Positions 56,900-57,273 of a stretch of 64,000 nucleotides of DNA are shown here, piece by piece. The notes under the pieces were generated by a model. That model had not been told where the DNA came from and ran no database searches. It was given only the letters and a program-made list of their open reading frames with translations. Position numbers and translations under genes: made by a program. This DNA is from a virus (Duplodnaviria; Caudoviricetes): the IMG/VR virus record IMGVR_UViG_3300029305_005547, positions 214,850 to 278,849 of that record, one strand, 5' to 3'. Position 1 is the first letter of the stretch. Each line of letters starts with the position of its first letter.

Positions 56900-57273
56900 T
56901 TTTCCCATTATAATAGCCAAGAGGAAACCGTGGTGTCATATAACCTAACCTTTTTACCTTGGATTTTATAAACAATTTACATCCTTACATCTGAATATTC
57001 ACATTTAAGTGGATTTATCAATCTCTGATAAATCCTACTAACAGGTTACATATAACATCTGACATATAACATTTAACATTTAATGAATGTGGATTCGAAC
57101 CACCGATACGCAAGCTTGATTAAAAGTCAAGGGCGTATAACTTCTCCAAAATCTGTTATTGACTCAATACGTTGGAGTATTGAAGTTATATGGTGGGAAA
57201 GCTATATTTATTTTACATCTCTGAACTTACCCAACAGGATGATATGATTCGGGTTTTCATCATAATAGGAAAA
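56900..57273 (-). ncRNA. Structured ncRNA, copy 2 (7-nt repeat array plus tRNA-Lys anticodon-arm/T-arm mimic)
   Basis: Closing stem UUUUCCUAUUAU/AUAAUGGGAAAA; core homologous to 38905-39324; begins 11 nt after the stop of 57285..58013. Confidence 0.75.

What the first reader, a model, noticed from the sequence alone, without database searches (positions are those of the whole stretch)
57089..57139. tRNA-Lys(UUU) anticodon arm and T-arm embedded without D-arm or acceptor stem
Seen (minus strand): CUUGA-CUUUUAA-UCAAG is a canonical 5-bp/7-nt Lys(UUU) anticodon arm (C32 U33 UUU A37 A38). It is mounted on an extra helix AUACGC/GCGUAU and followed by GUGG-UUCGAAU-CCAC, a T-arm-like hairpin. No acceptor stem or D-arm can be formed, so this is not a tRNA gene. 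Inference: a captured tRNA fragment kept as a nuclease or modification-enzyme bait.
Basis: partly seen in the sequence, partly recalled or inferred. Interest (0 to 1): 0.8.

Follow-up and report, generated by a model that had tools for sequence, protein, structure and literature searches.

The report
Phage RNA displaying swappable anticodon arms
The lysine-tRNA-like hairpin is real: it is the interchangeable "cargo" of an uncatalogued ~370-base phage RNA that travels with one conserved protein (also in laboratory phage T5), and across relatives the RNA keeps showing copies of tRNA anticodon arms while swapping the three anticodon letters, which points to bait for host enzymes that cut or read tRNA anticodons.

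Summary
Observation confirmed: a Lys(UUU) anticodon arm on an extra 6-bp helix, followed by a T-arm; no stable D-stem or acceptor stem (ARAGORN calls it only as a pseudogene at relaxed threshold). It lies in the variable domain of a ~370-nt structured RNA (56901-57272, minus strand) directly behind a DIP1984/DUF6847-like gene (phrog_1491, T5.085) of a 279-kb phage with no credible tRNA gene. The RNA has covarying terminal stems, a 7-nt repeat array, RNA-library contigs confined to it, and no Rfam match. Across 105 family RNA clusters, C32-U33-NNN-A37-A38 loops on 5-bp stems occur in 17 (reverse-strand control 1); they show real anticodons (Lys, Leu, Ser, Ile, Tyr, Met), stems covary, and most lack any other tRNA part. 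A few members hold whole tRNAs there. The triplet is not fixed: UUU/CUU switches occur in a strain of this phage and among T5-like phages. Best reading: a protein-scaffolded display of anticodon-arm mimics, probably bait for anticodon-directed host enzymes (function untested; T5's copy does not stop PARIS). The scan had noted this RNA family on other DNA and similar mimics on Y-like RNAs; the family-wide anticodon statistics and the T5 arm were worked out here.

The parts
57115..57131 (-). Anticodon stem-loop mimic, Lys(UUU): 5-bp stem, loop C32 U33 U34 U35 U36 A37 A38 (57126-57120)
   Evidence: Sequence; pair probabilities 0.90-0.99; identical to the arm of a real phage tRNA-Lys; a strain variant has U34C, giving Lys(CUU) (one RNA contig, depth 5.7)
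57106..57138 (-). Outer 6-bp helix (57138-57133 / 57111-57106) that carries the anticodon arm in place of a D-stem
   Evidence: Pair probabilities 0.82-0.99; one G-C to A-U double change in L008 and one A-U-compatible wobble change in L006; absent in L056 and L361
57089..57103 (-). T-arm (4-bp stem, canonical T-loop)
   Evidence: Identical in L006, L008, L016, L056; different but paired stem in L361; T-arms in 7 of 69 family RNAs, 0 in shuffles
57146..57147 (-). GG in a single-stranded stretch upstream of the outer helix; possible G18-G19 equivalent for an elbow contact with the T-loop (inference)
   Evidence: A UGG at the like place in L006, L008, L056, L361, not in L016; not tested structurally
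57164..57183 (-). Second hairpin of the variable domain, loop containing U-CCA-A (Trp-like; 6-nt loop here, 7-nt in L006); weak second anticodon-arm candidate
   Evidence: Fold; L006 loop listed
56901..57272 (-). Whole ~370-nt structured ncRNA, closed by a 15-bp terminal stem (57272-57258 with 56915-56901)
   Evidence: z = -3.93; 11 of 26 consensus pairs with double-sided changes in 9 clade RNAs; RNA-library contigs 56867-57259, 56880-57199, 56903-57134; no Rfam match
56972..57082 (-). Array of 7-nt units (about eleven, split by the hairpin 57035-57011); probable protein-binding tract (inference)
   Evidence: Sequence; period and UGU core kept in clade RNAs; AAAGUU-type heptamers in distant members
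56917..56965 (-). Conserved 3' core: AAAUCC motif and inner stem 56962-56957 / 56922-56917
   Evidence: Invariant columns and double-sided changes; core motif found behind the gene in 216 of about 250 loci
57285..58013 (-). 242-aa helical protein, phrog_1491 (mislabelled 'tail fiber'), distant DIP1984/DUF6847 relative; T5 homolog T5.085
   Evidence: phrog_1491 E 1.6e-24; NF038048 E 3.9e-5 and PF20935 E 8e-4, both under cut-off; AlphaFold pLDDT 95.7; top Foldseek hit 3KDQ, prob 0.99, E 0.18; self-association modelled, score 0.52 vs best control 0.00
38905..39324 (-). Second, stand-alone copy of the RNA with a different cargo (Met CAU arm; Asn-like GUU arm with A33)
   Evidence: 76% identical over the repeat/3' part; ortholog L357 keeps both loops on changed stems

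Best explanation
The element is the cargo of a display RNA. The phage transcribes the phrog_1491/DIP1984-like gene and the ~370-nt RNA behind it (shown: RNA structure by covariation, RNA-library contigs; inferred: transcript ends). The protein oligomerises and binds the 7-nt repeat array, protecting and organising the RNA (oligomer modelled; RNA binding inferred from constant gene linkage and periodicity). The variable domain between the 5' core and the array holds pieces of tRNA, probably captured from phage tRNA genes, and selection keeps above all the anticodon arm (shown statistically). Here the arm sits on a substitute helix beside a T-arm, so it can imitate the anticodon-to-elbow side of tRNA-Lys without a chargeable acceptor end (inferred). 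Its job is most likely to be bound or cut by host anticodon-directed enzymes, chiefly tRNA-cleaving defence nucleases and toxins, sparing host tRNA during infection; the triplet switches as the host's targets change (inferred, untested). Confidence: kept-by-selection anticodon mimic in a larger ncRNA about 0.9; decoy against tRNA nucleases about 0.45.
For: C32-U33-NNN-A37-A38 loops on stems of 5 bp or more in 17 of 105 RNA clusters vs 1 on the reverse strand and 0/2 in the coding sequence; commonest 7-nt loop class. Of 62 hairpin loops ending in AA, 44 carry a standard anticodon with U36 or A36 vs 36% expected; reverse strand 6 of 18 (clusters are related, so the p-value of 3e-8 overstates). 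Arm alone in 26 clusters, arm plus T-arm in 6, T-arm alone in 3; reverse control 6/0/0. The Lys(UUU) loop sits on different stems in the window, L015, L017, L143 and T5-like phages. Same-position switches with paired stems: GCU/GAU (L240/L145), UAA/UGA (L038/L030), UUU/CUU (OSYSP/Eps7; this phage/strain X4). In nine T5-like RNAs the changes cluster in and next to this hairpin while the body is nearly invariant. Several RNAs carry 2-3 arms in tandem (L146, L240, L015). tRNA-Lys(UUU) is a target of PrrC, AriB and Slfn5, and the AriB site is kept intact here (PMC12409363, PMC13056530, PMC10264068). The genome has no credible tRNA gene and no RtcB.
Against: No functional data. T5 mutants lacking tRNA-Lys (deletions 29191-32442 and 30661-38625) keep the T5.085 cassette at 43.1-44.1 kb yet are blocked by PARIS (PMC11464382), so T5's arm (A33 variant, no T-arm) does not by itself neutralise plasmid-expressed AriB. 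AriB also needs D-loop contacts and PrrC depends on base modifications, which an isolated arm may lack. About 70% of family RNA clusters show no recognisable arm, and two T5-like phages have a non-anticodon loop there, so the arm is optional cargo, not the core function. A cleavable decoy is a weak defence against a catalytic nuclease unless very abundant or slowly released; variants with A32, A33, C33 might be bind-only decoys, but that is speculation. Depths of RNA contigs are low (3-6) for this copy.
Confidence: 0.45

Rival explanations
1. Decaying tRNA genes: the variable domain tolerates inserted tRNA genes (as the GOLLD linker does) and this is a relic on its way out, with no function of its own.
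For: Whole tRNA-shaped genes lie inside the same domain in L268/L269 (Gln), L287 (Ile, odd T-loop) and L326 (Asn); L056, L268, L287 proteins form one clade (99/96); the gene often neighbours tRNA clusters; relaxed ARAGORN draws a pseudo-cloverleaf.
Against: Decay should not spare anticodon arms (26 alone, background about 6) over T-arms (3 alone), keep perfect stems through compensatory changes, build a new outer helix, or switch triplets among real anticodons. Arms are not enriched where tRNA genes are nearby (20/31 vs 46/75). This explains origin, not retention.
Confidence: 0.13
2. Ligand of the translation machinery: the RNP docks the arm in a ribosomal tRNA site (stalling, hibernation or codon-specific control), as viral tRNA-like structures and tmRNA do.
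For: U-turn geometry and A37-A38 are kept; anticodon plus T-arm on a helix of tRNA-like length; UUU/CUU switches stay within lysine.
Against: A33, C33 and G33 variants would spoil the U-turn needed for decoding; most members have only a 5-bp hairpin, several in tandem; no acceptor end or reading frame.
Confidence: 0.14
3. Substrate, sponge or sensor for position-37 modification enzymes (t6A by TsaBCDE, i6A by MiaA), tuning host tRNA modification or reporting it to the protein.
For: Nearly all arms are U36-A37-A38 or A36-A37-A38, the recognition strings of these enzymes (own knowledge); A37-A38 is better kept than 32-33; G37-type arms are nearly absent outside whole tRNAs.
Against: My main filters required A37, so part of the pattern is built in; a phage gains little obvious benefit; switching of 34-35 would then be unconstrained, yet triplets are mostly real anticodons.
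Confidence: 0.14
4. Purely structural U-turn loops that form kissing or pseudoknot contacts within the RNA or between RNA copies; tRNA likeness is incidental.
For: Large phage RNAs assemble through kissing loops (PMC12286853).
Against: Loops have no better complement in their own RNA than loops taken from other RNAs (5.19 vs 5.13 nt, 33% of shuffles as high); the loops are not palindromic; isoacceptor-typical stem pairs accompany the triplets.
Confidence: 0.07
5. Processing signal: the T-arm and tRNA-like shape recruit RNase P, RNase Z or other maturases to cut the RNA from the mRNA.
For: The RNA starts a dozen bases after the stop codon with no promoter-like site above chance; RNase P reads the elbow (own knowledge).
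Against: The module is internal to the terminal stem, RNA contigs run through it, no acceptor stem exists, and most members keep the anticodon arm, which these enzymes do not read.
Confidence: 0.05

Closest known systems
Bacterial tRNA-Lys(UUU) (Rfam RF00005)
   Same: 17-nt anticodon arm identical to a real phage tRNA-Lys arm; canonical T-loop; AriB site sequence intact.
   Different: No acceptor stem, CCA end or D-stem; extra outer helix; 4-bp T-stem; embedded in a 370-nt RNA; not called at default thresholds.
Nuclease-resistant phage tRNAs that counter PARIS, PrrC, Retron-Eco7/Septu (PMC11464382, PMC12409363, PMC10264068)
   Same: Phage-encoded tRNA-like RNA concerning the same targets, Lys(UUU) above all; present in T5-like phages.
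   Different: Those are chargeable tRNAs mutated to escape cleavage and replace host tRNA; this RNA cannot be charged and keeps the sensitive sequence, so it could only act as bait.
GOLLD and ROOL large phage RNAs (PMC12286853)
   Same: Phage ncRNA of unknown function near tRNA clusters, conserved ends, variable middle that sometimes holds tRNAs.
   Different: No Rfam match; about 300-420 nt rather than 600-800+; constant partner gene; 7-nt repeat array; cargo reduced to anticodon arms.
Ro60/Rsr with YrlA-type Y RNAs (own knowledge; Rfam RF02553)
   Same: tRNA-mimicking ncRNA next to a protein-coding gene, closed by a terminal stem.
   Different: YrlA mimics D, T and acceptor arms and lacks the anticodon arm; the partner here is a helical DIP1984-like protein, not a TROVE ring.
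DIP1984 / DUF6847 family (NF038048, PF20935, PDB 3KDQ)
   Same: Weak profile matches and best structural match.
   Different: Below both curated cut-offs; 210-245 aa vs about 150 aa; no function or RNA partner found in the papers searched.

Membership tests
tRNA gene (RF00005) | 7-bp acceptor stem with free 3' end | tested here: not met
   Relaxed ARAGORN acceptor has mismatches; cloverleaf -3.7 vs alternative -14.3 kcal/mol
tRNA gene (RF00005) | D-stem and loop | tested here: not met
   D pairs probability 0.0; the strand is used by the outer helix
tRNA gene (RF00005) | 5-bp anticodon stem, 7-nt loop with U33 and purine 37 | tested here: met
tRNA gene (RF00005) | 5-bp T-stem with T-loop consensus | tested here: inconclusive
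   Loop canonical, stem only 4 bp, pairing probability 0.34-0.6
tRNA gene (RF00005) | Score over ARAGORN / Rfam threshold | tested here: not met
   called only at -ps90 as possible pseudogene
tmRNA (RF00023) | Acceptor stem plus tag reading frame and pseudoknots | tested here: not met
   Only the 11-nt T-loop matches, 5.8 bits vs 47; ARAGORN finds no tmRNA
GOLLD / ROOL | Match to the Rfam covariance models | tested here: not met
YrlA Y RNA with Ro60 | Rfam match and adjacent TROVE gene | tested here: not met
   No Rfam match; adjacent gene is phrog_1491, neighbours scanned have no TROVE hit
DIP1984 / DUF6847 protein family (partner gene) | Profile score over curated cut-off | tested here: not met
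   23.8 bits vs 70 (NF038048); 19.8 vs 27 (PF20935)
DIP1984 / DUF6847 protein family (partner gene) | Same fold as 3KDQ | tested here: inconclusive
   Top Foldseek hit, prob 0.99, TM 0.58 on target, but E 0.18 and rmsd 12.5
phrog_1491 (T5.085 family) | Full-length profile match | tested here: met
   E 1.6e-24, profile 3-210 of 211; T5.085 E 3e-82
Decoy for anticodon nucleases (functional class) | Bound or cut by the nuclease and protective in vivo | not testable with these tools
   Only indirect: sequence statistics for; T5 PARIS-sensitive mutants keep the cassette, against

The most novel reading that the evidence does not exclude
Phages encode a ribonucleoprotein display scaffold: a DIP1984-like protein oligomer reads a heptamer array on a dedicated ncRNA whose exchangeable domain presents unchargeable anticodon-arm mimics, matched and re-matched to the tRNAs that host defence nucleases attack. 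It would be an RNA-decoy anti-defence against tRNases, present unannotated in T5 and over 400 related laboratory phages.
Probability: 0.35. Interest if true: 0.92.

Novelty: categorically new. Interest (0 to 1): 0.74.

Why it matters
tRNA cleavage is a common end point of anti-phage defence, and the counter-measures found in the papers searched are resistant tRNAs, more tRNA, or repair ligases; none is an unchargeable anticodon bait. The cassette is also a gene of unknown function (T5.085, mislabelled tail fiber) plus an unannotated RNA in one of the best-studied phages, with natural variants of the arm (T5 A33-UUU, OSYSP canonical UUU, Eps7 CUU, misterkot none) that make the question testable at once in E. 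coli or Salmonella laboratory strains. Even if the decoy idea fails, it is an uncatalogued RNA class with a fixed protein partner and a swappable tRNA-like domain.

Tried and rejected
Pattern scans for the arm plus T-arm in viral and metagenome contigs returned ordinary tRNAs, apart from L056. Low-threshold whole-genome ARAGORN (-ps80 with introns) is noise, 508 calls. PDB sequence search found nothing significant. MAFFT cannot align the variable domain across the clade, so RNAalifold predicts no consensus there; module covariation was read by hand from 3-6 sequences. Kissing-partner test negative and no enrichment of neighbouring tRNA genes. Promoter scan at chance level. No RtcB in the genome. 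The protein gene is mostly uncovered by RNA contigs, which is not evidence of silence. Paper searches for DIP1984, DUF6847, 3KDQ, T5.085 and for tRNA-decoy ncRNAs found no description; subscription journals are not covered. The 'tail fiber' and 'septicolysin'-type labels were not taken as evidence. A chance hairpin was rejected.

Full report
Setting. The window is the last 64 kb of a 278,849-nt, 32% GC virus record. ARAGORN finds no tRNA in the window and only one doubtful intron-containing call in the genome; Rfam finds nothing at gathering thresholds. The best-matching RNA runs are gut metatranscriptomes of animals.

Observation. The outer helix and anticodon stem have pair probabilities of 0.82-0.99; the T-stem is weaker. 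This is the only such Lys hairpin in the genome. A cloverleaf can be forced (ARAGORN -ps90, possible pseudogene), but it is 10 kcal/mol worse and its D pairs never form in the ensemble. The element is tRNA-like and unchargeable.

It is part of a larger RNA. Twelve bases after the stop of a 242-aa gene (57285-58013, minus) begins a ~370-nt RNA closed by a 15-bp terminal stem (57272-56901). It has a 5' core, a variable domain containing the element, about eleven 7-nt units split by a hairpin, and a conserved 3' core. Folding z = -3.93. In nine clade RNAs the terminal and 3' inner stems show double-sided changes at 11 of 26 pairs. Contigs from four RNA libraries of two studies cover almost exactly this interval (56867-57259, 56880-57199, 56903-57134); contigs cannot prove strand or ends, so this is a hint of a discrete transcript. 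A second copy without the gene lies at 38905-39324. Some close relatives keep the gene without the RNA behind it (L009, L011, L014, L138), and one of them has the RNA elsewhere in its genome (L357), so the RNA can probably act in trans.

The partner protein. It belongs to phrog_1491 (E 1.6e-24), whose T5 member is T5.085, labelled tail fiber without support from the model. It matches DIP1984/DUF6847 profiles weakly, folds confidently into long helices (pLDDT 95.7), and its best structural match is the Corynebacterium protein 3KDQ (prob 0.99, E 0.18). About 1,800 cluster representatives match the profile. Four copies were modelled as binding each other: score 0.52, best control 0.00, runs agree in at least 78% of contacts, pLDDT at least 79; the mark was reached by 20 of 30 solved homodimers and 1 of 23 single chains, and likeness to 3KDQ may contribute. 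That the oligomer binds the heptamer array is inference from periodicity and linkage: 216 of about 250 loci have the RNA core behind the gene.

The arm in close relatives. L006 keeps the whole module. L008 has Leu(UAA) on a stem with one wobble change and a compensated outer helix; L016 has a Ser(CGA)-like loop with A32; L361 has a Tyr(GUA) arm, a Trp-like loop and a T-arm with a different paired stem; L015 and L017 have Lys(UUU) loops on two other stems with no T-arm; L056, at 28% protein identity, has an ACC loop directly followed by the same T-arm. An RNA contig of a near-identical strain differs at position 34, giving Lys(CUU) (one contig, depth 5.7). So the triplet is not fixed, but the arm is kept.

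The arm across the family. Among 105 clusters (80% identity) of family RNAs, 17 have a C32-U33-NNN-A37-A38 loop on at least 5 bp, against 1 on the reverse strand and 0 and 2 in the two strands of the coding sequence; it is the commonest 7-nt loop class. Triplets are mostly UUU, UAA, GCU, UGA, GAU. With positions 32-33 left free, 44 of 62 loops ending in AA show a standard anticodon with U36 or A36 (36% expected; reverse strand 6 of 18), including A32, A33 and C33 variants of Lys, Ser, Asn, Thr and Phe arms and RNAs with two or three arms in tandem. Arms alone occur in 26 of 107 clusters, arm plus T-arm in 6, T-arm alone in 3 (reverse control 6, 0, 0). Clusters share ancestry, so these are not independent events, but they are spread over the protein tree. 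A few members hold whole tRNA-shaped genes in the same domain (L268, L287, L326), which suggests the cargo comes from captured tRNA genes and is pared down to the anticodon arm.

T5. The RNA is present and unannotated behind T5.085, and 438 phage records hold most of it. In nine T5-like RNAs the body is nearly invariant while one hairpin changes: UUU with A33 (T5, BF23, Seafire, S113), canonical Lys(UUU) on a changed stem (OSYSP, ABTNLsp4), Lys(CUU) (Eps7), and a non-anticodon loop (misterkot, 1-23).

Mechanism. Shown: structure, linkage, non-random retention of anticodon arms, triplet switching. Inferred: protein binding and function. I favour bait for anticodon-directed host enzymes, mainly tRNA-cleaving defences: Lys(UUU) is cut by PrrC, AriB and Slfn5, Ser anticodons by mycobacterial nucleases (PMC12409363, PMC13056530, PMC10264068), and this arm keeps the AriB-sensitive sequence that T5's real tRNA-Lys has mutated. 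Against it: T5 mutants without tRNA-Lys retain the cassette and are still blocked by PARIS (PMC11464382), AriB also reads the D-loop, and about 70% of family RNAs show no arm. Rivals are neutral decay of embedded tRNAs, a ribosome ligand, a substrate for position-37 modification, structural loops and a processing signal; the kissing-partner and tRNA-neighbour tests were negative.

Comparison and verdict. It works like a tRNA mimic but is not a tRNA, tmRNA, YrlA, GOLLD or ROOL by the tests run. No description was found in the open papers searched. Earlier notes of this scan had seen this RNA, its second copy, relatives behind DIP1984 genes in bacteria and archaea, and anticodon mimics on phage Y-like RNAs; I used them as leads and re-derived the points cited here. 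Real feature, uncatalogued RNA-protein system, function open but directly testable in T5. Interest 0.74.

Noticed in passing
window 38905-39324 (-): Second copy of the RNA without the gene; carries a Met(CAU) arm and an Asn(GUU)-like arm with A33, both kept on changed stems in L357; its RNA contigs are deeper (34.5, 9.8) than those of the gene-linked copy.
   Followed up: partly
window 56806-56852 and 56543-56563 (-): A strong GC-rich hairpin and a terminator-like hairpin follow the RNA; the first is conserved in L006, L008, L361, and a related stretch survives in relatives that lost the main RNA (L009, L011). One RNA contig covers 56599-56797. Possibly a separate small RNA.
   Followed up: no
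L268:core, L287:core, L326:core (just 3' of the gene): Whole tRNA-shaped genes (Gln UUG, Ile GAU with an altered T-loop, Asn GUU) lie inside the RNA's variable domain, without CCA ends; whether they are cut out is unknown.
   Followed up: partly
L192 and L193, 3' of the gene: T-arm followed by a 5'-half-like stretch with a D-arm, i.e. permuted tRNA-like order, inside the variable domain.
   Followed up: no
L324-L326 (G238:C71:78303-82122): Three tandem divergent copies of the phrog_1491-like gene in one clostridial-class genome.
   Followed up: no
window 58130-60765 (-): Four tandem genes of 200-227 aa with similar N-termini and no Pfam or NCBIfam match lie upstream of the cassette gene; the block is syntenic in relatives.
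   Followed up: no
L365 (T5 43160-43504): The RNA is unannotated in T5 and T5.085 is labelled tail fiber although its family models as an all-helical DIP1984-like protein.
   Followed up: yes
L327-L352: The long form of the gene occurs in 26 of 401 sampled genomes of the Bacilli-level class but in only 3 of 399 of the Clostridia-level sample.
   Followed up: no
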